Assembly: GCA_951406725.2 (NCBI GenBank)
Contig: OX597814.1
Coordinates: forward strand, 30,070,001 to 30,134,000
DNA from: Octopus vulgaris
Taxonomy: Eukaryota
Direction: 5' to 3'
DNA length: 64,000 bases
This document shows, one piece after another, positions 1,389 through 64,000 of the stretch (its first letter is position 1; each line of letters opens with the position of its first letter). Position numbers and translations under genes: made by a program. Under the pieces are notes generated by a model. That model had not been told where the DNA came from. It was given only the letters and a program-made list of their open reading frames with translations, and ran no database searches.

Positions 1389-1627
1389 TCACACATGCAC
1401 ACACACACGCACACACATATATACACATGCATGCACATATATAAATATATTTGTGGTTCTGTATTATATTTTGATGGATGATAATTTGATAATACTTGTT
1501 ATACAAACACACACACACACACACACACACATACACACACACACACATACAAATCCACATATATACTTTGCCATGTTTTTCTTCTTGTCAATTTTTTTAC
1601 GTATTTTTTTCCTCTATTCTTTTTCAG

Positions 1628-1817
1628 TAAAAAAATGGTTGGTTTTTGGACTCTAGGAGATGTCTTCAAAACTGTATATTTTATTTTAAGAGCAGCGCCT
1701 GCTCAGTTTTGGATTTGTGGTGTCTTACAAATATCTATTGATTTGTCTATATTTGCACAGGTTTTATACTATGGGGGGTTTCAGGGCCGCATTATGTCCA
1801 AATCAGCGGTCAGCTAG
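1628..1817 (+). CDS. PQLC1: Terminal coding exon of a PQ-loop repeat protein (PQLC1/SLC66A2-like)
   Basis: Polypyrimidine tract and ttttcag acceptor (AG 1626-1627). Reads (S)KKMVGFWTLGDVFKTVYFILRAAPAQFWICGVLQISIDLSIFAQVLYY...AVS*, resembling the PQLC1 C-terminus (KMVLMWTSGDAFKTAYF..APLQF..CGLLQV.VDLAILGQ, recalled from memory). Upstream exons not seen in the window. Confidence 0.85.
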
Positions 1818-3779: not shown

Positions 3780-3867
3780 ATGTATATCCCCCTCTGTTCG
3801 GCATTCGCCATAATAGATCGCTTGCCACTACACATTTTTATTTTCTCTTCTTGTTTCTTTCTGTGTT

Positions 3868-3905
3868 CCTTTCTGTGGAAGAGCATAGGCTTGAAACATT
3901 AAAGA
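3868..3905 (+). ncRNA. Degenerate minimal hammerhead-ribozyme-like motif (Penelope-like terminal repeat)
   Basis: cttt-CTGTGGA-a-gagc atag gctt-GAAA-catt-aaag: helix I cttt/aaag, helix II gagc/gctt. Same family as 63714-63751. Confidence 0.5.
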
Positions 3906-3996
3906 CTTTTTCACTTCTTGAGCATTAAACTAATACATCTGTTTGTTGTCTACACCATCTGTCTTTGTCTTTTGTTTTTTTTTTGTGAATTCTCCC

Positions 3997-19365: not shown

Positions 19366-22300
19366 TATTTGAATGGAGGCAATACCAGTGGAAAACTAGA
19401 GGTACATGACCTATTATCCAATAGAATATTCAATATATATGTGTACTTTCGACATTAATAAATCAATATAAAGTTCAAGATAATATTAGTATTAAAAACA
19501 TACAAGTATATAAATATTTAATATTTAAAAACATAACCATTTTAAAATATTTAAAAATACGTAGGCATTTAAAAATGTATAAACACATAAATAGATATAA
19601 AAAACGTCGATATTATATAAGATAAAAACTTAAGGTATTTAAAAATATTTTAAAATACTCATAATATATAAAAATATGCAGGCAAAATATAAAACATCAA
19701 TATAATATAAGACTTATTGAATTATTAATTCACACGATAAGATACAAGGGAATAAAATTCACAAGTTACAACACTGAGTCCAGTGGAAAGTTTGAAATTA
19801 GAAAACATTAAAAGTATGTCCTTTTAATGTTTTAGAAAGAATAAGTCCTGGGGTCAATTTATTCAACTAAAGGTGGTGCTCCAGCATGGCCACAGTCAAA
19901 TGACTGAAACAAGTAAAAGAGTATAGTACCCAATGTGTCTTTTATTTTTTTTTTAGATTATAGCATGTTATTTGGAAGAAATTTAACTGCTATTTTTTGC
20001 AAGTTAAGTGACTGTCTAGAGCAGCAGTTCTCTACAATGGCTCCCAGGGCCACATACAGCCCTCAAGCATCTTTCCAGTGGCCCCTGACAGTCTTCCTTT
20101 TATAAATATAATAATTTTTTCTTTAATTGACTTGTTTTATTTATTTTTTTGTGCAGCCCCTAAAACAAAATCCAGGTTTTGAATCTGGCCCTGATATTAA
20201 AAAGATTGAGAACCGTTGGTTTTGAGGCTCCCTCATTCACTCATGATATTTAGTTACACATTCTTATGTTCTGAATCTAAATTCCACTAAGGTCAGCTTT
20301 GCTTTTACGCCTCCTAGAGTCAATAAAATAACTAGTAGTCAAGAACTAGAGTTGATCTGATTGACTAATATATATATTCAAAATGTCTTTTCTGAAACAG
20401 CTTGCAGCTGACTTGGTAGAAGCCCACAAGATTATCCATCATCTTTCCAACAATAACATTCACCATCTCTTTAAATTCAGTACCTCTACCACTCATGGTC
20501 ATGCTAATCAAAAAAAAAAAAAAAAAAAAAAAAAAAACCCAGCACAGCCGTGACTTCTAGAAAATTTTTCATGCTCAGAATTGTTGAAGCAAGTCATCTT
20601 TCAAAATTTCAATGCTTCCAGAAATTCACCAGCACTACTCCCAATATGCCTGTTCAACCTTATTTTTTAGGACACTTAATGTTCACTTTTTTCTATTTTT
20701 GTGTTTAATTCCATGTACTTCTAGCTTTCATTACTGCCTTTCTTTACTTGATTGGTATATCTACTCTCAGTCCCCTCTTTTAACCTTTTCTGATGAGTTG
20801 TAGTGCCCCTGAGCATTGTGTCCAATAAGATTGTAATATGTATGAGTGAAGGGACATCTGCTATTTTTAGCCATTTGAGCTACTGCACAGAATCTCTGAA
20901 ATTGGCTCACCTTTACTATTGTTGGTATTGCTTCGGCTCAGATCAACTCTAAATGAGCAAACCTGTGATCAAAATCATTCTAGTTGTGATAATCCATCTT
21001 ATTTAGTTAGAATTAAAAGTAATGAGCTGGTAGAACAGTTAGCAGGCCAGACAAAATGCTTAATGGTATTTCATCTGCCTTTTGGTTCTGAGCTCAAATT
21101 CTGACAAGGTCAACTTCACCTTTCATTCTTTTGGGGTCCTTAAAGAAGTACCAGTCAACTGACTTCCCCACTCTCCTCAAAAACTGCTGGTCCTGTGCCC
21201 AAATTTAAAACCACTTAGTTAGGATTACATTATCCAATGAGTTCTTAACTTTTTCTAAATGGTAGTGAGTAGTTTGAGGGAAATTTGGCTGTTGCTTCTA
21301 GTTTGGTGAATGATCCTGCAGAATCTTCCTAGCTATTATTGTTATTTGAGAAGATGAACATATTTATGTACTCACAGCTAAAACATATGTCAGGTGGAGA
21401 GAATAGCGTTGGTTGAGATAAAAGTAATACATCATAATTGGATGCACCAGATAAGCACAATATGTCAAACGGCTGAGGGGGATGAGTGCTTTCCATGACA
21501 AGATAGTGTTCACATAACCTGAAATGAAATAAGAAAAAAAATCAATAATTCCATTGAAATTATTTATAGAAAATATTTTTTTGTCCAAAATAAAAAAAAA
21601 GAAAGAAGGAAAAAATAATAAAATTGGCAATCAACAATAGGAATACCAATAACAAGAATGATGATAATATTGGGTTGTCCAGAAAGTTTGTGCCAATTTA
21701 TAGTAGCTTACCTTTCGACTTATTTTAGAACATGGTTGAGTCCATAAAATAGGATTTGACTACACCTCCATTTAGAGCACAGTTTAAGCTATCTTTTTGT
21801 GGAAGAAGGTTTATGTTCCTATAACCTGTATTAATTCTGTAATCCTTTAAAATGGAAGAGAAGAAAGTTCATTTTCGGCACTTGATGCTTTGGGAACCAG
21901 ACAAAGATTGCTGCAGCTTGGCTGGGATGTGTTACCCAACTCTCCATATTCATCAGTTATTGCTCCTTCGGATTTCCACTTATTCAGGTCTCTGCAGAAT
22001 AGCCTAAATGGTAAAAATTTCAATTCCTTGGATGATGTAAAAAGATACCTTGATGAATTCTTTGCCATGAAACCACCTCAATTCTGGGAAGAGGGTATTT
22101 TCAAGTTAAAGGAAAGATGGAGACGCATTGTGCAACAAAATGGTTCATATTTGGTTGATTAAAAATGTAATGGCAAGTATTTATTGACCTTTTTCTTTCC
22201 TTTAAAAATCAGCATGAACTTTCCGGACAACCCAATATTATAAATAAGTCATATGTTTACTATCAGGTATGCAAGAATCCTAGACTGAGTGTCTGCAGCA

Positions 22301-46800: not shown

Positions 46801-48529
46801 GAAGTTAAAAACTTACTCCAAATTGGCATCCCAAAGATATAGGTGTGACCTAATATGACCCAGGTCATGCTGAGGAATCGAATGCCATGTATACAGGTCA
46901 ATGTACCATCTGGCTGATTTGTACTTAGCAACTTTTTAGCATTCTTATAAACAGAGAATGTAAGGAGAAATTTTGATACAGCATCTGCAAAACAAAAAAA
47001 TATATTTGTTAGTGAAGAGAATTAAATAAGGAGAGCGTGATTTAGTGAATATGTATAATGTTATAGGTACAGGTGTGGCTGTGTGGTAAGAAGCTTGCTT
47101 CCCAACCAAACAAACTCTCTCAACAATAACTTACTAACAAGCCACACCTTACATACTTTCCCCCTATCCTCCTCTATCAAACTTCTACATCTATTTCCCT
47201 GGCCTTGGTAAACATCTCATACATCTCAACTTGATAAACATCTCATCATATATACAGGTGTTGGACAAAATAATGGAAACATCTCGCATCATAATTTTGA
47301 AATATCTATAAAACCATCAAAAGCTTGTTTATTTTGTCAAAAGTGTCTTTAATTTTATGCTTTTTGATTTATTATCAGCGTTGCTTAATAAGTTTTGCTA
47401 AAATTGCTGTTTCTTTTCAGATATTGTCAGAAAAAGGTAATTAAAATTCATTAAAATGACAGATCTATTGGACTTGCAAAGAGGTCAAATTGCTGGTGCT
47501 AGTATGACAGGTGTTAGCGTAATGAAAACATTTCAAATGTTTGGTGTATCAAGAAGTACTGTTTTGAAAGTAATGATAGCCTTTGAGAAAGAGGGAAAAA
47601 CCTCCTTGTTGAAGCAAAACTCTGGAAGAAAACCAAAATTTTCACATAGGGACTGTCTGACTCTTATGTGAATTGTTAGAAAGGATCACATAAGTACAGC
47701 TCCCAAAATTACTGCAGAGCTTAATGACCACCTTGAGAACCCAGTTTCCAGAAAAACTGTTTGCCGGGAGCTGCATGAAGCCAGTCTTCACGGGACGGCT
47801 GCAATGAGAGAACCACTACTTTTAAAAACAAATGTTGCAAAGCATTTAGAGTGCAGTAAAAATCTACAGAATTGGTCCCTAGAGCAGTGGAAGAATGTTA
47901 TCTTCTCGGATGAGTCATCCTTTACCTTATTTCCAACTACTGGTCAAGTATACATGTGGAGACAGCCAAAAGAATTATCTGACCCAGACTTCCTTCTTCC
48001 AACTGTTAAACATGGAGGAAGATCTGTGATGATCTGGGGGAGCTATATCTTGGAAATCCGCTGGCCCAATAGTTTCCCTTCATGGCAGAATTAATAGTCA
48101 AGACTATTTAAGCATTTTATCTGATCAAATTCATCCTATGATTGCAGAACTGTTTCTGGAGGGAAATGCAATTTTTCAGGATGATAATGCACCAATTTGC
48201 ACAGCTAAAGTTGCTGCTGAATGGCACGATGAACAATCTAGTGGAGTTAAACATCTTATCTAGCCACCACAGTCCCCAGATATCAAAATTATCGAACATT
48301 TATGATGCATTTTAGAAGAACAAATAAGGGGTCCCCCACTATCATCACTACAAGAACTAGAGACTGTTTTAGCTGAAGAATGGATAAAAATTCCTTTGGA
48401 AACAATTCAAACTTTGTACGATTCCTTACCTCATAGAATTCAAGCTGTAATTACCGCCAAAGGCGGACCTACCCAATATCAAAATAAATTTGTTTGAAAT
48501 TTTAAGGTGTTTTTCATTATTTTGTCCAA

Positions 48530-56100: not shown

Positions 56101-57530
56101 GTTGCTCCAGTCCAATCAGCTGGCAAAAATGAATAGTACCTGTATTTCAAAGGGCCAGCCTTGTCACACTCTGTGTCACGCTGAATCTCCCTGAGAGCTA
56201 TGTTAAGGGTACACGTGTCTGTGGAATGCTCAGTCACTTACACATTAATTTCATGAGCAAGCTGTTCCGTTGATTGTATCAGCTGAGGCCCTCGTCGTCG
56301 CAACCGACGGAGTGCTCCTATACTAATTTGTCTATGTAGATAAAATAAATGCCACTGGCTACTCTGAGTTATTTCTCTTAGTTAATTTCTGTCTAATTTA
56401 AATCTGTATAATCTTGCCTGTTGAGGTAAAAACATGTGTCTATGAGTGTCCTTTTATCTTCAGACAATAAGCCTGTCTGTTTCCTTTATGACAACATTAG
56501 AGAATTCTGGATTCTTAAGATTTTCTGTCTGTATGTCAGGATTAGTGTTTCTAGGACTACATTTGGCAATACATCCTACTTTTTTAAAAAGATAGCAGCA
56601 TGTGGTTTGCGGCAGATTTGGTGACTGAGTCTATCCAGAGGTTCCCTCATTAGCACATCCCTAGCCATGTTTTTTAATGCAAGAGTTCAGAAAAAGCACC
56701 AGTTATATCAATCTCAAAAGTCTTGGAGTACTCCTCTTCAACAAAGGCACAGACATGACTGTATGGTAAGAAGTTTGCTTCCCAACAACATAGTTTTGGG
56801 GTTCAAGCTCATTAAGTGTCTTCTATCATAGTTTTGGGCTGAGAAAAGCTTAATCATCATCATCATTGTTCGACAATGGAATTTACCATGCTACGCCAGA
56901 CTTCACGGTTCATCATAGCATTACGGATGTCCTGTTGCTGGATGCCTGTATCCCTGGAGAGTACATCAGTGTTGGAGAGTGTGCACCCTCTGGTATTGCG
57001 AGTAGATGGCTTCCAGAGGAGAAGAGTAGAAATTGCCTCGTTTTCAGCTCTTCAACAATGTCCAGCAAAGCTTCACGAGTAGATTTGGTAGATGGAAACT
57101 AAAAGAATCCATCATTTGTGTGTGTGTGCGTATAAATATGTATGTATACTTTTGTTTATATCCCTGTAACTCAGCAGTTTGGTCAAAAAAAAAAAATGAT
57201 AGAATATGTATTAGATTTAAAAATAAATTGAGGGGTTAATTTTTTCAACTAGAGTCTTCAAGGCTATGCTCCAGCATGGTTACAGTTCAATGACTGAAGC
57301 AAATAAAGGAAGATAAAAGATAACAACAATTGAAACAACCACAACAACCAAAATTCAGGTAACAATTGTCTGAAATTCAAATGTTAGAACCAATAAATTC
57401 CAGACATAAAGTTCAATATTTAGCAATACTTACAATGAGATGATAGCTTTTGAATCATAGCCTCTATCTTCTTCACACTGCACCACTGAGCTGATATTTC
57501 CAGAAATTGATTTTGGGAGAAGATGGATAT
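19129..57530 (-). CDS. NRF-6 (nose resistant to fluoxetine 6)/O-acyltransferase-like protein, acyltransferase-3 family; 12 exons, 5' end outside window
   Basis: Exons joined by hand: 1613 nt, every junction GT-AG and phase-compatible. Family motifs [74 protein letters not shown]. Confidence 0.93.
20022..20218. mobile_element. hAT-like MITE
   Basis: TIRs cagcagttctc / gagaaccgttg; degenerate 8-bp flanks gtctagag/gttttgag. Confidence 0.6.
21376..21518 (-). CDS. NRF-6-like exon k
   Basis: tttcag|GT...GCT|gtgag. [48 protein letters not shown]. Confidence 0.95.
21670..22235 (+). mobile_element. Non-autonomous mariner deletion derivative with both TIRs and TA TSD
   Basis: TIRs ttgggttgtccagaaagtt / aactttccggacaacccaa flanked by TA. 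N-terminal [14 protein letters not shown] is joined directly to the C-terminal [27 protein letters not shown]...[13 protein letters not shown]. Confidence 0.93.
22370..22611. mobile_element. hAT-like MITE (related copy at about 40195-40423)
   Basis: Ends cagtggttctt / gtgaaacactg; internal ggatccata and gggtccatc motifs shared with the copy near 40200. Confidence 0.55.
22861..23530 (+). pseudogene. Decayed mariner transposase, 5' half
   Basis: From ATG 23037: [28 protein letters not shown]...[14 protein letters not shown]...[11 protein letters not shown]...[16 protein letters not shown], with stops and frameshifts. Confidence 0.85.
23712..24093 (-). mobile_element. SINE family B, full length with 11-bp TSD
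   Basis: TSD tccagattaat at 23701-23711 and 24094-24104; tRNA-like head. Confidence 0.9.
24410..24573. repeat. 82-bp direct tandem duplication
   Basis: actcc(t)aagggagtgaagtgtttaagtagtag...taggaaacacac occurs twice, with about 3 differences. Confidence 0.9.
27110..27260. repeat. Degenerate (GAT)n trinucleotide tract
   Basis: Directly visible; explains the poly-His ORF 26998-27360. Confidence 0.9.
28373..28559 (-). CDS. NRF-6-like exon j
   Basis: ttgcag|TAT...G|gtaag. [22 protein letters not shown]...[26 protein letters not shown]. Confidence 0.95.
28911..29487. mobile_element. Two RTE-tail short retroposons in tail-to-tail inverted orientation
   Basis: 28911-29092 (+) and 29187-29487 (-) share ccatgctagcatgggttggacgg...ccttcctaacgccaaccactccgtgagtg. 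Confidence 0.85.
29599..29994 (+). mobile_element. Non-autonomous Helitron
   Basis: 5' TC(tttatatataaaag), subterminal hairpin cccgagcaacgctggg, 3' CTAG; inserted between A and T with no TSD. Confidence 0.85.
30428..30824 (-). mobile_element. Non-autonomous Helitron, same family, inverted
   Basis: Reverse complement of the 29599 copy's termini; hairpin cccgagcaacgccggg; A|T insertion site. Confidence 0.87.
32154..32382 (-). mobile_element. SINE family A with 16-bp TSD
   Basis: TSD caaggacaatgatacc at 32138-32153 and 32383-32398. Confidence 0.93.
32530..32876. mobile_element. hAT-like MITE with 8-bp TSD
   Basis: TIRs caagggttctcgacca / tggttgaaaaccccta; TSD gtctgtaa/gtctgtac. Confidence 0.8.
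32906..33032 (-). CDS. NRF-6-like exon i
   Basis: tttcag|T GAC...CGT|gtaag. [42 protein letters not shown] (absent from the ORF track). Confidence 0.95.
33204..33238 (-). ncRNA. Minimal hammerhead-like motif
   Basis: gttt-CTGACGA-a-gag ctcca ctc-GAAA-catt-aaac: canonical CUGANGA/GAAA core with helices I and II. Confidence 0.6.
33385..33468 (+). ncRNA. Hammerhead-like motif with extended helix II
   Basis: acttcc-CTGAAGA-[gattacattg...cagtgatatc]ttc-GAAA-tgtgtt-ggaagt: perfect 6-bp helix I; helix III reads as CpG-decayed ACGCGT. Confidence 0.55.
34000..34229 (-). mobile_element. SINE family A nested in the mariner relic
   Basis: TSD ttt(g/a)tgatcaagtgt on both sides. Confidence 0.88.
34912..35355 (+). 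mobile_element. tRNA-derived SINE, family C, with an internal (TA/TG)n tract
   Basis: Head ggctgtgtggtaagtagcttgc...gggttcagtccc, CORE-like ccttgggcaa, 3' ctccagcatggccgcagtcaaatgactgaaacaagtaaaaga. Other copies near 37518-37918(-), 41802-42195(+), 48572-49336(-), 52950-53420(+), 60323-60722(-). Confidence 0.88.
35771..35992. mobile_element. piggyBac-type MITE
   Basis: TTAA|CCCTTT ... AAAGGG|TTAA; second copy at 46575-46794. Confidence 0.88.
36760..36873 (-). CDS. NRF-6-like exon h
   Basis: ttccag|T TCA...AG|gtaag. [37 protein letters not shown]; 114 nt, phase 2-2. Confidence 0.9.
37518..37918 (-). mobile_element. SINE family C
   Basis: Reverse complement of the 34912 copy. Confidence 0.87.
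38195..38375 (+). mobile_element. 3' end of a LINE (RTE-like) inserted in a family C SINE
   Basis: [24 protein letters not shown]...[12 protein letters not shown] with a (TGA)n tail; TSD tgtgtttatgtcct; second copy at 56854-57075 (-). Confidence 0.75.
39014..39434. mobile_element. MITE with about 28-bp GG-initiated TIRs and a perfect 8-bp TSD
   Basis: TIRs ggatcttttcagtttgaatggcagtttt / aaaactgccgttcaaacggaaaagatcc; TSD gaaagatg at 39006-39013 and 39435-39442. Confidence 0.9.
39643..39722 (-). CDS. NRF-6-like exon g
   Basis: tttag|TGT...CA|gtaag. [26 protein letters not shown](H). Confidence 0.95.
39855..40008. repeat. (CAC/CAT)n then (CTT)n trinucleotide tract
   Basis: Directly visible; explains the SP-, GD- and VM-rich ORFs. 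Confidence 0.92.
42646..42817 (-). CDS. NRF-6-like exon f
   Basis: accag|C TTG...ATG|gtaag. [26 protein letters not shown]...[23 protein letters not shown]. Confidence 0.95.
43080..43790 (-). pseudogene. Decayed fragment of an RLE-type non-LTR retrotransposon (R4/Dong-like)
   Basis: [17 protein letters not shown] followed, after a frameshift, by [23 protein letters not shown] and QHDIVVK, resembling a decayed CCHC zinc-knuckle region. Confidence 0.6.
44026..44118 (-). CDS. NRF-6-like exon e
   Basis: catcag|...CG|gtaag. [30 protein letters not shown](R). Confidence 0.93.
44946..45039 (-). CDS. NRF-6-like exon d
   Basis: tttag|...AG|gtatg. [30 protein letters not shown](S). Confidence 0.93.
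46575..46794. mobile_element. piggyBac-type MITE (second copy)
   Basis: TTAA-flanked; homologous to 35771-35992. Confidence 0.88.
46817..46984 (-). CDS. NRF-6-like exon c
   Basis: ttgcag|...|gtaag. [55 protein letters not shown]. Confidence 0.95.
47255..48535 (+). mobile_element. Near full-length Tc1-like transposon with a pseudogenised transposase
   Basis: TIRs caggtgttggacaaaataatggaaaca / tgtttttcattattttgtccaaaccct with TA flanks. Motifs [42 protein letters not shown], with stops and frameshifts. Confidence 0.93.
49368..51413 (-). mobile_element. Probable non-autonomous Helitron with nested insertions
   Basis: Minus-strand 5' TC(ttctctatatataaaac) at 51413; 3' hairpin and CTAG at 49368-49371. 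The two ends could belong to different copies. Confidence 0.55.
52066..52387 (+). mobile_element. 3' end of a LINE with a (CAAGT)n tail
   Basis: TSD actggcatcga on both sides; inserted in an older RTE-tail repeat. Confidence 0.7.
53446..53657 (-). CDS. NRF-6-like exon b
   Basis: tag|G ATT ATC...TTA G|gtaaa. [20 protein letters not shown] helix followed by a hydrophilic loop. Confidence 0.85.
53833..54315 (+). mobile_element. 3' part of the same Tc1-like family, interrupted by an RTE-tail element (54106-54258)
   Basis: Homologous to about 48210-48535; ends in the TIR ttttgtccaaccactg|TA. Confidence 0.85.
55638..56318 (+). mobile_element. Head-to-tail pair of family B-related SINEs
   Basis: Two units of about 325 bp (55638-55965, 55993-56318) separated by (TATG)n. 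Confidence 0.88.
57434..57530 (-). CDS. NRF-6-like exon a (most 5' found)
   Basis: ttgcag|AT...TT|gtaagt. (D)[31 protein letters not shown](L); phase 2 end matches the next exon; looks like the end of the NRF domain before the first TM helix. Confidence 0.8.
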
Positions 57531-57954
57531 CTGCAATCATAAGAATATTTTGATAAGTAAAGGTCTACAGCCAAGGGGAAAAATATTTCTGTCTCCCTTT
57601 CTCTCTCTCTACATATCTATCTCATCACCATCATCATGTTTGTGTAGTATAGTCTGTAAGAGATGCTTTCTCAAGATGTAAAGTGCAGTTTAGAAGGCTT
57701 TCAGCAGTATATGTGTATTGATTATGATATGCAGATTGCTAATTTGAACTGATATTGTTACTGTCATTAATAACGAATTTTCATTCAACCTGCTGGCTAA
57801 ATGCGACATCAGTTTTACTAAATCAGTTAGCTTCTGACATTTCACTTAGAATGTGGTGCCAATGACTTGCTATTGATGAAGCTCAAAATAGCAGAACTCT
57901 GGGTTTATAAATATATTATGTTTGTATGTGCATATACGTATATGTATTATGTAT

Positions 57955-58390
57955 GCATACAATGCATCTCCATCTTTCCTTTAACTTGAAAATACCCTCT
58001 TCCCAGAATTGAGGTGGCAAAGAATTCATCAAGATATCTTTTTACGTCACCCAAAGAATTGAAATTTTTACCATTACGACTATTCCGCAGGGACCTGAAT
58101 AAGTGGAAATCCAAAGGAGCAATATATGATGAATATGGAGGGTGGGGTAACACATCCTAGCCGAGCTGCAGCAATTTTTGTCTGGTTTCCAAAGCATCAA
58201 GTGCCGAAAATGAACTTTCTTCTCTTCCATTTTAAAGGGTTACAGAATTAATACAGGTTATAGGAACATAAACCTTCTTCCATGAAAAGATAGCTTAAAC
58301 TGTGCTCTAAATGGAAGTGTAGTCAAATCCTATTTTATGGAATCAACTACATTATAAAATAAGTCGGCATGAACTTTCCGGACAACCCAA
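57955..58390 (-). mobile_element. Second copy of the mariner deletion derivative, 3'-truncated
   Basis: Same N-/C-terminal junction as 21670-22235; TIR and TA at 58390; [21 protein letters not shown]. Confidence 0.9.
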
Positions 58391-58904
58391 TACGTACATG
58401 ATAATGCTGGAACATTACCTGTCATATGATAGGTAATTTTGGAAGTCTATCCATGCCATAATGAGTAATATCAGGAAATATGGCATTCAACAATAACTAT
58501 ATTATAAAGTTTTTTCGAATTCCTTGATGCCAAACAAAATGATAAAATGAATATCAATTTTCAAAAGAAAATATCTATTATCTGAAAATAAAATTAGATA
58601 ACACAAATTTCTAATTTGTGTAGCTCCTCATTTAATTGCTACCATTTGCTCTTCTTCCTCCTCCTGCCATCCTGCGCCTCATATGTTAACTCTTCCTCTA
58701 TCTCTCTTTTATTTCATATGATGTAAAGCATGACTGAAGAAATTTACCAGAGAAATTATGTGTATGTGTAGGCATTTATATGCATGTATATATATGTGTG
58801 TGTGTGTGTGTGTCTCTTCTATTTTTTTAATCATTATAAATCTTTCACTGAGGAGGGAGCTGGTTTCCTACAAGGATACAAGGCTCCATCTCTTGAATGT
58901 AGTT

Positions 58905-59617
58905 AACACATACATACATAAATTACATATATACATACATACATATGTACATACGTACGTAAATACATATAGATATACATACATACATATGTACATACAT
59001 ATATATATACATATGTATGTACATACATACATATGTATGTACATACATACATATGTACATACATGCATTTGTATGTACATACATACATACATATGTATGT
59101 ACATACATACATACATATGTATGTACATACATATGTATGTATGTACATACATAAATACATATGTATGTATGTACATACATAAATACATATGTATGTATGT
59201 ACATACATAAATACATATGTATGTATGTACATACATACATACATATGTATGTATGTACATACATACATACGTATGTATGTACATACATACGTACGTACGT
59301 ACATACATACGTACGTACGTACGTACATACATACGTACGTACGTACATACATACGTACGTACGTACGTACATACATACGTAAGTACGTACATACGTACGT
59401 ACGTACATATACGTACGTACGTACATACGTACGTACGTACGTACATACGTACGTACGTACGTACATACGTACGTACGTACGTACATACGTACGTACGTAC
59501 GTACATACATACATACATACATACATACATACATACATACATACATACATACATACATACATACATACATACATACATACATACATACATACAAACAAAC
59601 AAACAAACAAACAAACA
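58905..59617. repeat. Compound tetranucleotide array (TACA/TATG, TACG, TACA, CAAA)
   Basis: Directly visible. Confidence 0.96.
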
Positions 59618-59713
59618 ATGTATTGCTGTCTTTACTTCACTTAATTACTGCTTTTTACCTTTCTTTCCAACAAGTTGTAGTGCATCGTGACATTGTATAC
59701 AATAAACCCATTA

Positions 59714-59747
<34 letters not shown>

Positions 59748-60513
59748 CATATCCTAAATTAATACTTCTAAATTAATACTTTTAAATTAATACTTATATC
59801 TTTAGTATTATCAGTTTTATTGTTACTTTTATGATTACCATTATTTCCATTATTACTATTCGAAGTCAAATACTGCAGTTGATGCTACCATTTGCTTTGG
59901 CCTTGTACTTCTGTAATGTAAACACTGTTATCAATTTGATCGGTATCTTTATTTGTATCACCATTGTTGTCTGGCAGCAGTGGCGAAGGTAAAGTTCAAT
60001 GGTGGTACTTTGTTATCAATACCACGATGTATATATTTCTATCATCATTATCATTATAAGTAATCAATTGGCTAACTTTTAATGAAATGCCTATCCTTAA
60101 CTAATACTCTGCCTTCCCAAAATTTTATTGTACCCCATTCTTAATTTATATTCAGTTTCATATATCTTCTTTAAAAATCCTTCCTCATCTCTCTTCTATT
60201 CTTGCTCATCCTGCAGACCATAGTCAATAGCTGACCTAGTCACGTACTTTTCTAAACTCTCTCCAAATTTCATATCCTTTAATTGTCATCGTTTTTTTTT
60301 TTTTTGTTATCACTATCTTCTGCTCTTTTACTTGTTTCAGTCATTTGACTGTGGCCATGCTGGAGCACTGCCTTTTTAGTCAAGCAAATCGGCCCCAGGA
60401 CTTATTCTTTGTAAGCCTAGTACTTATTCCATCGGTCTCTTTTGCCGAACCGGGGACGTAAACACACCAGCATTGGTTGTCAAGCGATGTTGGTGTGGAC
60501 AAACACAGACACA

Positions 60514-60570
<57 letters not shown>

Positions 60571-61035
60571 AACAGGCTTCTTTCAGTTTCCGTCTACCAA
60601 ATCCACTCACAAGCCCGAGGCTATAGTAGAAGACACTTGCCCAAGGTGCTATGCAATGTGACTGAACCCAGAACCATGTCGTTCGTAAGCAAGCTACTTA
60701 CCACACAGCCACTCCTATGCCTATTATCATTCATTATTTCTCCATTTTACTTGGCAGAATCGATAGAGTGTTGAATAAAATGCTTCTAAAGTATTTCTTT
60801 CAGTCCATAATGTTCTGAGTTCAAATTCCACCGAGGTCATCTTTGCCATTCATCCTTTCCGGGTCAGTGAAATAAAGTAGCTAGTTGAGTATGCTTGATC
60901 AATGTAATTGAATAACTTGATTTGATTGAGAGAGTGAGCTAATGTACAATACAAACATTTGATCACTATCAACAATTCATTTGTGCAGGTCGATTAGCAA
61001 AATCTGAACTCTCATATGTCATCTTCAGAGAGTCC

Positions 61036-61600
61036 ATCATCATCATCATCATCATCATCATTGTTTAACGTCCGCTTTCCATGCTGGCATGGGTTGGATG
61101 ATTTGACTGAGGATTGGTGAACCAGATAGCTGCACCAGGCTCCAATCTTGATCTAGCTGAGTTTCTACAGCTTGATGCCCTTCCTAACGTCAACCATTCT
61201 GAGAGTGTAGTGGGTGCTTTTACGTGCCACCAGCATGGGGGCCAGTCAGGTGGTACTGGCAATGACCTCGCTCAAATATTTTTTCATGTGCCAGTGAGGT
61301 GATGCTGGTAATGATCACGCTCGAATGGTGCCTTTAAGTGCCACTGGCATAGAAGCCAGTTAGCTGCTCTGGCAACAATCATGCTTGGATGGTACTCTTA
61401 GCACCCCACTAGCACGGGGCACAAGTGCCAGTAAGGTGACGCTGGTAACGATCACACTCAAATGGTGCCTTTTATGTGCCACTGGCACGGAAGCCAGTTA
61501 GCCGCTCTGTCAATGAGCATGCTCGTATGGTGCTCTTTGCGCCCTGCTAGCACGGATGCCAGTCATCAAATTTGATTTCGATTTGCTCATCATCATTATT
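61036..61600 (-). mobile_element. RTE-tail retroposon with internal sub-repeats of about 60 bp
   Basis: (CAT)n tail and family core; repeated atggtgc...gtgccactggca units. Confidence 0.75.
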
Positions 61601-63140
61601 ATTATTGAGTGAGAGAGCGGTGCATGCCATCAAAGTGACACCAGGGTAAAATATACAAAGCCCAGTATACCCATCTGATAAGGGTACACCAGGCATATGC
61701 ATCACAACCATATGTGTGCGACATGGCGATCTCATATCAAGATAAATAGTACACGACCTTGCAGGTGGGGCCCAGTTAGAGTTTTCTTCAGGTTGAGTAG
61801 CCCATCCTGCTCAAAAGGTCCCTGAATAAGAGTTGTTTAAGGATGTTTCCTGAGGTGAATTATCCAAACCCCAAAGAATCCCTCTCAACACATGGCTATG
61901 ATACTCCCCCACTACTTCTGCTCGTGATTAGAGATGCACATATTGTCAGCCACTAAGGGGCGTACTCAACTGGTTATGATCAAACAACTGACAAGCAAAT
62001 CTGTGGTATTGAGCAGAATATTTGCTGTAGCCCATCTTTTATATGAAGACAAAACAATGTACATGATAACACTTCCAGTCAGTTAAGATCAGAAGCCATG
62101 AGAACTACTGCCTGGTACTGCATCAGGGCAATTGGACTGCAACCACGCTTGGGCACCTCTTTGAAAGGTTTTGTTGATCAAATTGACTCCAGTACATATT
62201 TTTTGGTCATACCTACAAAAGTGTGCACCCCCACCCCCGGACTTTGTTTCCTCATAACCTCCAGAAAAAGGCAGCGAGGAGGCAGAACCATTACTGCTCT
62301 AGAAAAACTGCTTAACAGTATTTCTTCCATCTTTATGTTCTGAGTTCAAATGCCACCGGGGTCAATTTTGCTTTTCATTGTTATGGGGTTGATAAATTAA
62401 GTACTAGTGAAACACTAGGGTTGATATAATTGACTAGTCTCTTCCCCAACAATTTCAGGCCTTGTACCAGTAGTAGAAAGGATTATTATTATTATTATAA
62501 TTATTAATATTATTATTATCATCTTGTTGTTATTGTTTTTTACCATTGTTTCAAAAATTATAGTCAGTACTACAACTATTTTACACATTATTTTCCATGT
62601 TAGTTATTCTATTCCTATTTTTATTCTCACTATTATTACCTCTGCCTTCAGGTGGAGGTATTGTTTTCAGTTGTCTTTGTTTGTTAGTTTGTTTTTCTGT
62701 GGACAAGATATCTCAAGAACTGCTGGATGGATTCGGATAAAACTTTCAGGGATGACTGGCACAAACTGTTTAGATTTTGGGATTGATTAGATACTGGACA
62801 AAGATTCTGGATCATTTTTCCTGTTTCTTTACTTTTACATGTGTGGGTAAAGTTTCACTTAGTTCTCTTGTACATGCACACACATACACACACACATTTT
62901 CAGCGTTGAACCTTATCATCCCATTTCCATTGTACACACACACATGTACGCAAACATAGCTTGCTTTTACAAACAAATCTACTCACACTTCAAATGCCGT
63001 TCATTGGCTTTTTCACTCTTTCCTTCATTATTCATCTATCACCCCTTCCTTTCTCATTCATACAATGCTCGCTGTGCCATTTATCTTCTCTACCTTCACT
63101 TCTCACTCTGGCTCTATTTTATGCACACACACATACACAT

Positions 63141-63182
<42 letters not shown>

Positions 63183-63401
63183 AAATATTAGGGAATAGAT
63201 CCAAACTTACAGGGAAAAATCAGATTTAGGATTAAATCCAATTTTATAGTAAAATATATTATATTATATTAAATTAGAGATAAAACCACTATTAGGCAAA
63301 TCAAACAATGAAAAACATAAGCCAATACATAAAATTAATTAATTTATATTATTTTAAATATATATCAAAAGTATTAAAAGTTTAATAAAAGATAAAGAGT
63401 A

Positions 63402-63474
63402 AAACACTACGATCGTTTCATGGCTGTACAATTCGTAATAATTTGAGTAATGGTTACAGTCAATCTTCAGGTTA
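63402..63474 (-). ncRNA. Hammerhead-like motif with palindromic helix III
   Basis: aac-CTGAAGA-t-tgactgta...tacagcca-t-GAAA-cgatcg-TA-gtgtt; ACGATCGT palindrome and GUA triplet. Confidence 0.55.
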
Positions 63475-63713
63475 ATTGAAATATTTATCTTAGTGAGGTT
63501 TAGCATATATATATATATATATATATATACAAATATACATATATATATATATATACAAATATATATACATACATATATATATATCTACAAATATATATAC
63601 ATACATATATATATAATGGGAAGCTTTATGAAAATAGACAAAAGACGAAGGCAGGTGGAAAACAAACGAACAATTGTATTAGTATGGCGCTCAGGAAATA
63701 TAAATAAAACAAG

Positions 63714-63751
63714 TCTTTAACGTTTCGAGCCTACGCTCTTCAACAGAAAGA
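63714..63751 (-). ncRNA. Minimal hammerhead-like motif with CUGUUGA core
   Basis: tcttt-CTGTTGA-a-gagc gtag gctc-GAAA-cg-TT-aaaga: perfect helices I and II, ACGT palindromic helix III. Confidence 0.6.
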
Positions 63752-64000
63752 TACACAGAGAGAAAAAAAACACAGAAAGAAGGAGAGAAAAAAATGCGTG
63801 CAGTAGCTAACGAATCAACATGGCGATCTGATTTCGGCCAGAGGTCAAAGATCAAACATGAGACGCGAGAGCGAAATAAGGGGAGATAATAGGGTTGATA
63901 ATAGGGTTGAAGGACCAGCTAATAGTGCGTAGGAGGGGTCTGGACGTGTGTATGTATAGGGTTGGTGTATGTATTAGTATGTATAAGGGTGTGTGTGTGT

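What the first reader, a model, noticed from the sequence alone, without database searches (positions are those of the whole stretch)
63402..63751. Two nearby minimal hammerhead-ribozyme-like motifs on the NRF-6-like sense strand
Seen: on the minus strand about 240 nt apart, UCUUU-CUGUUGA-A-GAGC(GUAG)GCUC-GAAA-CG-UU-AAAGA and AAC-CUGAAGA-U-UGACUGUA...UACAGCCA-U-GAAA-CGAUCG-UA. Both have the CUGNNGA/GAAA core and a palindromic helix III (ACGU; ACGAUCGU) too short to fold alone. Established: Penelope-like element terminal repeats carry such minimal type I hammerheads, which cleave as dimers. Inference: these are PLE- or retrozyme-type non-autonomous elements, probably within an intron of the gene and transcribed in the active orientation.
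Basis: partly seen in the sequence, partly recalled or inferred. Interest (0 to 1): 0.75.

Follow-up and report, generated by a model that had tools for sequence, protein, structure and literature searches.

The report
Two Penelope hammerheads, one altered core
These two hammerhead-shaped RNA motifs are the tails of two unrelated jumping genes that landed side by side in an intron; one family, with about 20,000 copies, carries a changed letter in the normally fixed catalytic core yet keeps the rest of the hammerhead pattern, so it likely still cuts weakly, which is untested.

Summary
Both motifs are real and lie on the sense strand of a 10,024-nt intron of an NRF-6-like gene. They are not a pair. 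HH1 (63751-63714) is the 3' pseudo-LTR hammerhead of a 5'-truncated copy of a young Neptune-like Penelope-like element (intact RT + GIY-YIG copies exist, 4.5-kb tandems). HH2 (63473-63405) belongs to a 330-bp deleted derivative of a Hydra-clade element. Both sit in (TA)n, and their helix I arms cannot cross-pair. Such hammerheads are well known. What is new: HH1's CUGUUGA is not decay. Of 19,868 exact motif matches only 356 have the canonical A6; intact young copies carry U6. Across subfamilies the other core positions stay fixed, position 7 takes all four bases and the cut site moves between A and U, not G (125 versus 5,077). Descriptors that require CUGANGA would miss this family. I found no natural A6U in print, but could not read Lunse 2017. 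Cutting is not shown: truncation points do not pile up at the cut, and A6 changes slow other hammerheads. The lone intronic copies are probably inert. The scan has noted other core-variant hammerheads in this genome; none listed names this variant.

The parts
63714..63751 (-). HH1: minimal type I hammerhead with A6U core (CUGUUGA), extra A between 9 and 10.1, 4-bp helix II, ACGU palindrome, predicted cut between 63719 and 63718
   Evidence: its 28-nt core equals 48 of 50 hammerheads found in loci picked by the family's endonuclease
63619..64000 (-). 3' end (3' UTR / pseudo-LTR) of a 5'-truncated Neptune-like PLE copy; it continues 1,226 nt beyond the window end and holds a broken GIY-YIG endonuclease remnant
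   Evidence: 310 of 316 aligned bases identical to the pLTR of intact copy L094; 10-nt gap in the EN part and a ~190-nt internal duplication
63506..63618 (.). (TA)n-rich microsatellite separating the two elements; likely the shared insertion target
   Evidence: 80 of 90 family-1 copies have TATATA within 55 nt of the 3' anchor
63405..63473 (-). HH2: type I hammerhead with canonical CUGAAGA core, U.U at the base of helix II, ACGAUCGU palindrome, GUA triplet, only 2 contiguous helix I pairs; predicted cut between 63408 and 63407
   Evidence: same layout as Hydra-clade hammerheads in File S2 of PMC8557442
63175..63505 (-). ~330-bp non-coding derivative of a Hydra-clade PLE: pseudo-LTR joined to a 3' UTR motif that lies ~0.9 kb further upstream in long copies
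   Evidence: 98% identical to L240 over 313 nt; junction shared by 8 distinct places among 30 fetched loci; motif spacing in long copies
57531..64000 (-). part of the 10,024-nt GT-AG intron of the NRF-6-like gene that holds both elements (5' splice site 3,554 nt beyond the window end)
   Evidence: flanking exons join in frame with GT/AG ends; PF20146 NRF on the two upstream exons, E 2.8e-9 and 8e-4; predicted from DNA only
57434..57530 (-). predicted next coding exon (97 nt) of the NRF-6-like gene

Best explanation
The two motifs are pseudo-LTR hammerheads of two unrelated Penelope-like retrotransposons, one Neptune-like and one Hydra-clade, that lie in the same (TA)n tract of an intron; the Neptune-like family has U fixed in place of core A6, and its hammerhead likely still cuts slowly as a homodimer in tandem element transcripts, while these lone copies are probably inert. 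Shown: family identity, linkage to RT/EN ORFs, tandem layout, U6 in intact young copies, and the hammerhead-shaped pattern of conservation. Inferred: two hammerheads of one tandem transcript swap strands through the ACGU palindrome, perhaps helped by the element's protein as reported for Poseidon of Anolis; U6 lowers the rate; cleavage trims or circularises element RNA but is not the step that sets the 3' end of new copies, which lies about 100 nt past the cut at a UA-rich segment.
For: EN remnant 1.0-1.5 kb upstream of HH1 on the same strand. It finds 150 of 150 scored genome matches at 100% identity, many in open frames over 1,000 aa. These ORFs carry RVT_1 (E 3.8e-7, above cutoff) and GIY-YIG (E 0.007, below cutoff), DKG, YIDD and a CX2-5CxxC linker, are 96-99.6% identical to each other and sit in ~4.47-kb tandems with the U6 hammerhead in both pLTRs. 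In 71 of 90 copies picked by a downstream flank motif (19 dropped, mostly truncated before the hammerhead), 0 of 12 core columns carry an allele shared by 3 or more copies apart from CpG decay; structured columns 4 of 28 versus flanks 27 of 59 (Fisher p 0.004); N7 is A24/U28/G7/C12 and N17 A55/U14/C1/G1. Genome-wide: A6 356 of 19,868; G17 125, spread over all N7 types, against U17 5,077 in two subfamilies. Contigs of 4 runs of four coded organisms vary inside the motif only at N7 and N17. For HH2: of 17 loci picked by the family's EN (87-96% identity), 16 have HH2 or its pLTR downstream on the same strand; 3 more loci of a sister family carry a covarying hammerhead (palindrome ACGAUCGU versus ACAAUUGU, helix I CAC/GUG, helix II UGUC/GACA). 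The ORF has KWK, DKT, YRDD and CxCX5C, matching the Hydra definition.
Against: No cleavage data. All single changes in the CUGA turn gave low activity in a mutational scan (PMC9901934, passage) and natural A6C cuts at under 0.1 per min in Mg2+ (PMC3088659, passage). Truncation points beside (TA)n show no pile-up at the cut: 8 of 55 distinct places at -1/+1, against 11 at +7 and 4-5 at several other offsets (hand count of the first 100 of 250 rows). Loop II (GUAG) is about as conserved as the core although catalysis does not need it, and the flanks hold conserved blocks too, so conservation is not exclusive to catalysis. Only a few subfamily-level changes underlie the N17 argument, and columns are not independent. 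The swapped-strand dimer (-14.9 kcal/mol) is less stable than two core-occluding monomer hairpins (2 x -10.8) in ViennaRNA. In the Anolis element hammerhead mutants did not affect insertion in vitro (PMC11167929). The tree does not resolve one origin of U6 (13 changes, at least 4 forced). Pfam found nothing in the Hydra-clade ORFs.
Confidence: 0.62

Rival explanations
1. The U6 hammerhead is catalytically dead or negligible; the family keeps the folded motif as a protein-binding or folding signal, or simply has not yet had time to lose it, and spreads without cutting.
For: A6 changes are harmful in vitro. Cleavage was not needed for insertion in the one PLE tested, and Naiads spread without canonical hammerheads. 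No truncation footprint at the cut. Loop II is conserved too. The monomer folds into a hairpin that pairs the core strand. An earlier scan note (e1-8672774, not checked here) reports a Penelope mini-element that kept spreading after core changes.
Against: The two positions that drift are exactly the two that the catalytic fold leaves free (N7; N17 not G), while 0 of 12 core columns changed at subfamily level as 27 of 59 flank columns did. A6C variants keep measurable activity, more in Mn2+.
Confidence: 0.3
2. The two neighbours act together, or alone, to cut the NRF-6-like pre-mRNA and so regulate the host gene.
For: Both are on the sense strand in one intron, 240 nt apart. HH1-family motifs lie within 1.5 kb of HH2 in 6 of 30 loci.
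Against: Helix I arms are not cross-compatible (AUCUUU/AAAGAC versus AUUAAC/GUGUUUU) and the palindromes differ. Orientation and distance vary among the co-occurring loci, and only 2 of 118 HH1 loci have HH2 nearby. No second same-family hammerhead was found in the window and BLAST over 93 kb found no other copy beyond one old 146-bp fragment. Both copies match their families closely, with no sign of locus-specific change.
Confidence: 0.04
3. They are non-LTR retrozymes: non-coding tandem repeats that make small circular RNAs.
For: The HH2 copy is non-coding, about 330 bp, and its deletion junction recurs at 8 places; retrozymes are thought to derive from PLE pLTRs (bioRxiv 10.64898/2026.07.22.740005, abstract and introduction).
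Against: Neither motif is in a tandem array here; HH1 is attached to a coding PLE remnant; the retrozyme definition used in that preprint needs two or more tandem units.
Confidence: 0.03
4. Chance matches to a short consensus, or a decayed single copy.
For: The relaxed pattern occurs by chance 0.35 times per shuffled window; no Rfam hit.
Against: Thousands of family copies, fixed position in pLTRs, covariation in sister families, U6 in intact young copies.
Confidence: 0.01

Closest known systems
Minimal type I hammerheads of metazoan PLE pseudo-LTRs (Cervera and de la Pena 2014, PMC4209133; read parts 1-2 of 4 and passages of supplementary file 2)
   Same: U-rich 5' flank, 4-5 bp helix I, extra base between 9 and 10.1, G10.1-C11.1, palindromic 15.2/16.2, NUH with CGU-U common, position in pLTR, many solo truncated copies, inverted pairs.
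   Different: Their consensus is CUGANGAH; the core variant they report in the text I read is U3-A8. HH1's family has U6. No octopus family appears in the passages seen.
Hydra-clade PLE hammerheads, including Hydra-1_Obim and Hydra-1_Crog (Craig et al. 2021, PMC8557442; read section 11, passages, supplement rows)
   Same: HH2 has the same ctgaNgat...tgaa-ac layout with U.U at the base of helix II and a longer palindromic helix III; the ORF has the Hydra motifs; (TA)n targeting.
   Different: By eye a different family from Hydra-1_Obim; much longer AT-rich 3' UTR (mostly about 2.2-3.6 kb against whole elements under 3 kb); longer loop II; weak helix I in the window's subfamily; a short deleted derivative.
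Neptune clade PLEs (definition from PMC8557442)
   Same: Single ORF, RT then CX2-5CxxC linker then C-terminal GIY-YIG, tandem pLTR layout, microsatellite targets.
   Different: Clade placement rests on motifs, no tree against reference elements was built; Nematis shares the linker.
Natural A6C hammerhead of phage Bcep176 (Perreault 2011, PMC3088659, passages; Naghdi 2020, PMC7151607, parts 1-2)
   Same: Natural change at core position 6 with the rest of the core intact.
   Different: C not U; a single phage sequence, not a 20,000-copy animal retrotransposon radiation; tested in vitro (slow in Mg2+, better in Mn2+).
Poseidon hammerhead of Anolis (Frangieh et al. 2024, PMC11167929; read parts 1-2 of 4)
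   Same: PLE hammerhead; copies end downstream of the cut at an internal priming site; no natural ends found at the cut.
   Different: Canonical core, overlaps the ORF start, shown to be protein-assisted; here untested.

Membership tests
PLE minimal type I hammerhead (HH1) | Core C3 U4 G5 A6 N7 G8 A9 / G12 A13 A14 | tested here: not met
   A6 is U in the window and in nearly all copies (356 A6 of 19,868); all other core positions met
PLE minimal type I hammerhead (HH1) | A15.1-U16.1, palindromic helix III, NUH cut site | tested here: met
   ACGU + U; N17 A/U/C, G rare
PLE minimal type I hammerhead (HH1) | Helix I 4-5 bp, helix II with G10.1-C11.1 and an extra 5' base | tested here: met
   little true covariation inside the family, the helices are conserved rather than covarying
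PLE minimal type I hammerhead (HH1) | Located in the pLTR of an RT + GIY-YIG element | tested here: met
PLE minimal type I hammerhead (HH1 and HH2) | Site-specific self-cleavage as a dimer | not testable with these tools
   only contigs were offered, no raw reads; indirect truncation test negative
PLE type I hammerhead (HH2) | Canonical core and NUH | tested here: met
   CUGAAGA, GAAA, GUA
PLE type I hammerhead (HH2) | Three helices supported by covariation | tested here: met
   sister family covaries in palindrome, helix II and helix I; the window's subfamily has only 2 contiguous helix I pairs and an A.C mismatch in helix II
Neptune-like EN+ PLE (family 1) | RT with DKG, C-terminal GIY-YIG, CX2-5CxxC linker | tested here: met
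Neptune-like EN+ PLE (family 1) | RT phylogeny within Neptune rather than Nematis | not tested
   no reference proteins held as usable sequences
Hydra clade PLE (family 2) | RWK-like motif, DKT, CxCX5C linker, CxxC and CxH around E/N, no CCHH, (TA)n targets | tested here: met
   KWK in the sister ORF, DKT and CxCX5C in both; CxxC and CxH read by eye; definition
Hydra clade PLE (family 2) | Generally short (<3 kb) | tested here: not met
   ORF about 2.5 kb plus 3' UTR mostly 2.2-3.6 kb; the paper gives this as a tendency
Non-LTR retrozyme | Two or more tandem non-coding units each with a hammerhead | tested here: not met
   single copies at this locus; not tested genome-wide for the 330-bp unit

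The most novel reading that the evidence does not exclude
The most abundant hammerhead family seen in this genome is a working natural A6U ribozyme: a successful retrotransposon lineage swapped an invariant U-turn base, stayed under selection for the catalytic fold through several subfamily radiations, and depends on its own protein or on an unusual ion preference to cut. Searches that demand CUGANGA would miss about 20,000 such ribozymes here and possibly similar families elsewhere.
Probability: 0.4. Interest if true: 0.62.

Novelty: new variant of a known kind. Interest (0 to 1): 0.42.

Why it matters
PLE hammerheads are known but their role is open: they cut poorly, and in one test were not needed for insertion. 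This genome offers a natural experiment: sister lineages with canonical A6 and with U6, intact young ORFs and thousands of copies. If U6 cuts, the hammerhead consensus and the search descriptors need widening and a protein-assisted or ion-shifted mode becomes testable. If it does not, a very abundant PLE lineage spreads with a dead but conserved hammerhead, which argues for a non-catalytic role. The locus itself is ordinary: two transposon tails in an intron.

Tried and rejected
Rfam scans: no hammerhead family listed, only microsatellite-driven miRNA hits. DNA search of the genome with HH1's flank returned 0 because common words are skipped; patterns were used instead. Pfam on the short EN pieces, on the Hydra-clade ORFs and on five downstream NRF-6-like exon frames found nothing useful. 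Expression: no RNA holder listed on record, contigs only; the upstream exon had no cover in 4 runs, which shows nothing. Truncation footprint at the cut: none. Single origin of U6: not resolved; many A6 rows were picked for A6 and fall inside U6 subfamilies as likely back-changes. Idea that U6 specially locks an inactive hairpin: the core strand is paired in the predicted fold of all 44 intact copies, including the one A6 copy, so not specific. Idea that the downstream GAGCG pairs with helix II as a switch: not in the predicted fold. Heterodimer and fixed composite element: rejected. Literature searches for a natural A6U: 'hammerhead ribozyme' + 'A6U' (2 unrelated listings), 'CUGUNGA' (none), CUGUUGA/CUGUAGA/CUGUCGA/CUGUGGA (top 20 of 56 listings seen, none on natural ribozymes by title), hammerhead + octopus. 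Lunse et al. 2017 on PLE hammerhead variants and one review of hammerhead mutagenesis were not held; supplementary file 1 of PMC4209133 was not searchable. These could already hold the variant.

Full report
Observation. A relaxed scan (CUGNNGA, helix II, GAAA, palindrome) finds only these two in the window; 100 shuffles give a mean of 0.35 hits, and 0.01 when helix I must have 3 bp, a test that HH1 passes and HH2 (2 bp) does not. Rfam has no matching family at this place. The genome is 2.8 Gb; I take it to be octopus-like from recalled repeat types and from earlier scan notes, which no call of mine proves.

HH1 is the tail of a young Neptune-like element. An exact pattern with positions 6, 7 and loop II left free matches 19,868 places, the reversed control none. 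Just past the window end, on the same strand and 1.0-1.5 kb upstream of HH1, lies the C-terminal part of a GIY-YIG endonuclease with a CxxxRCxxC linker. That piece finds 150 of 150 scored matches at 100% identity out of 12,870 candidates, many in frames over 1,000 aa. Ten fetched regions show ORFs of 1,021-1,200 codons in nine, ~4.47-kb tandem units and the hammerhead in both pseudo-LTRs in nine. The ORF has RVT_1 above the Pfam cutoff and GIY-YIG below it; six intact ORFs are 96.3-99.6% identical. The window's copy is 1.6 kb, 5'-truncated, with a 10-nt gap in the EN part and an internal duplication. It ends at 63619, about 100 nt past the predicted cut, in (TA)n, as 80 of 90 sampled copies do.

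The core change is a family trait. The window's core is CUGUUGA, with U at the invariant A6. In loci picked by the endonuclease 48 of 50 hammerheads have this same 28-nt core, the other two are U6/C7 (2 of 40 loci had none in range). Only 356 of the 19,868 matches have A6. To avoid choosing copies by the hammerhead I sampled 90 copies by a downstream motif (20,661 matches); 71 were kept as reaching the hammerhead, 19 dropped (one truncated copy slipped through and was removed, leaving 70). None of 12 core columns has an allele shared by three or more copies apart from CpG decay; 4 of 28 structured columns against 27 of 59 flank columns do (p 0.004, columns not independent). N7 takes all four bases and marks subfamilies; N17 is A55/U14/C1/G1. 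Genome-wide G17 has 125 matches spread over all N7 types, which looks like decay after insertion, while U17 has 5,077 in the U7 and G7 subfamilies. Contigs of four runs from four coded organisms differ inside the motif only at N7 and N17. A flank tree puts canonical-A6 families outside the U6 radiation at a midpoint root but does not show a single origin. So the motif kept the constraints of the catalytic fold after the change. Against this: loop II is conserved as well, and flanks have conserved blocks.

HH2 is the tail of a Hydra-clade element. Its pattern has 461 matches, often in inverted pairs. Long copies run upstream through an AT-rich UTR into an RT/EN ORF. Of 17 loci picked by that endonuclease, 16 have HH2 or its pLTR downstream on the same strand, and three loci of a sister family have a compact hammerhead that covaries in the palindrome, helix II and helix I. 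The ORFs show KWK, DKT, YRDD and CxCX5C, as defined for Hydra (PMC8557442 section 11), and that paper's File S2 lists hammerheads with the same U.U layout, including an Octopus bimaculoides family. The two families' proteins share only about 27% identity over short stretches. The window's copy is a 330-bp derivative lacking about 0.9 kb; the same junction is at 8 distinct places among 30 fetched loci.

Why they are neighbours. Both insert into (TA)n. HH1-type motifs lie within 1.5 kb in 6 of 30 HH2 loci, and HH2 in 2 of 118 HH1 loci, at varying distance and strand (overlapping loci not merged). In a double hammerhead each site needs the partner's helix I strand (established model, PMC4209133); the arms here do not cross-pair. 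No same-family partner was found in 93 kb around. The host intron is 10,024 nt with GT/AG ends and in-frame flanking exons, in a gene with PF20146 NRF hits. The copies are in sense but lack a partner, so I expect them to be inert.

How it likely works. Shown: structure, linkage, conservation. Inferred: a read-through tandem transcript carries two hammerheads that swap strands through the palindrome and cut after N17; new copies start at an internal UA-rich site past the cut, as found for the Anolis element, where the hammerhead needed the protein to cut and was dispensable for insertion in vitro (PMC11167929). U6 should slow cutting: natural A6C cuts at under 0.1 per min in Mg2+ and better in Mn2+, and changes in the CUGA turn gave low activity in a scan. 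An indirect test was negative: 5' truncation points next to (TA)n do not pile up at the cut (8 of 55 places by hand count; the idea for this test came from scan note e1-8663719). Folding energies favour an inactive monomer hairpin over the dimer. I put slow or assisted cutting at about 0.6 and a dead but conserved motif at about 0.3.

Novelty. PLE hammerheads, also in octopus Hydra elements, are known. A natural, family-wide A6U core did not appear in five searches or in the supplement passages of PMC4209133, but Lunse et al. 2017, the paper most likely to list such variants, could not be read, and one supplement was not searchable. Scan look-ups by words and by sequence found nothing on this variant; genome-wide look-ups showed 8 notes each of 237 and 252, on other hammerhead variants. 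Verdict: new variant of a known kind; the locus is ordinary, the family is a good test case.

Noticed in passing
L247, L252, L253, L263, L265: A6 copies with G7 and U17 share flanks with the U6/G7 subfamily; CTGAGGA looks over-represented among A6 matches, so a small subgroup may have returned to A6.
   Followed up: partly
L033, L249, L257, L258, L259, L261, L271: A divergent sister family (100/100 support) keeps canonical A6 with the same helix II stem and other loops; a natural control for bench tests. L008 has U6 with divergent flanks and may be a separate change.
   Followed up: partly
L094:4520-4545; L266: At tandem junctions the element's 3' end runs through a short TATATA segment into the 5' UTR, about 105 nt after the predicted cut; it may be the internal priming site that pairs with nicked (TA)n.
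   Followed up: no
L226, L229, L234, L236, L240: Further unrelated PLE-type hammerheads (palindromes ACAUAUGU, ACAAUUGU, ACGU) lie in the flanks of fetched loci; such motifs are dense in this genome.
   Followed up: no
L241-L243 and one search list: A young Hydra-clade sister family with ~840-aa open frames, asparagine-rich linker and compact hammerhead.
   Followed up: partly
window 3842-3982 (+): Old 146-bp fragment of the family-1 3' region, 74% identical.
   Followed up: no
window 58930-59600: ACGT/ATGT tetranucleotide microsatellite that gives many false miRNA hits in Rfam.
   Followed up: yes
window 1485-1814 (+): Frame that looks like the last exon of another gene (PQ-loop-like by recall, not tested).
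   Followed up: no
window 21851-22159, 47441-48260 (+): Mariner/Tc1-like transposase fragments, named from recall.
   Followed up: no
L195, L196: Tandemly duplicated leucine-rich-repeat genes each preceded by a family-2 element.
   Followed up: no
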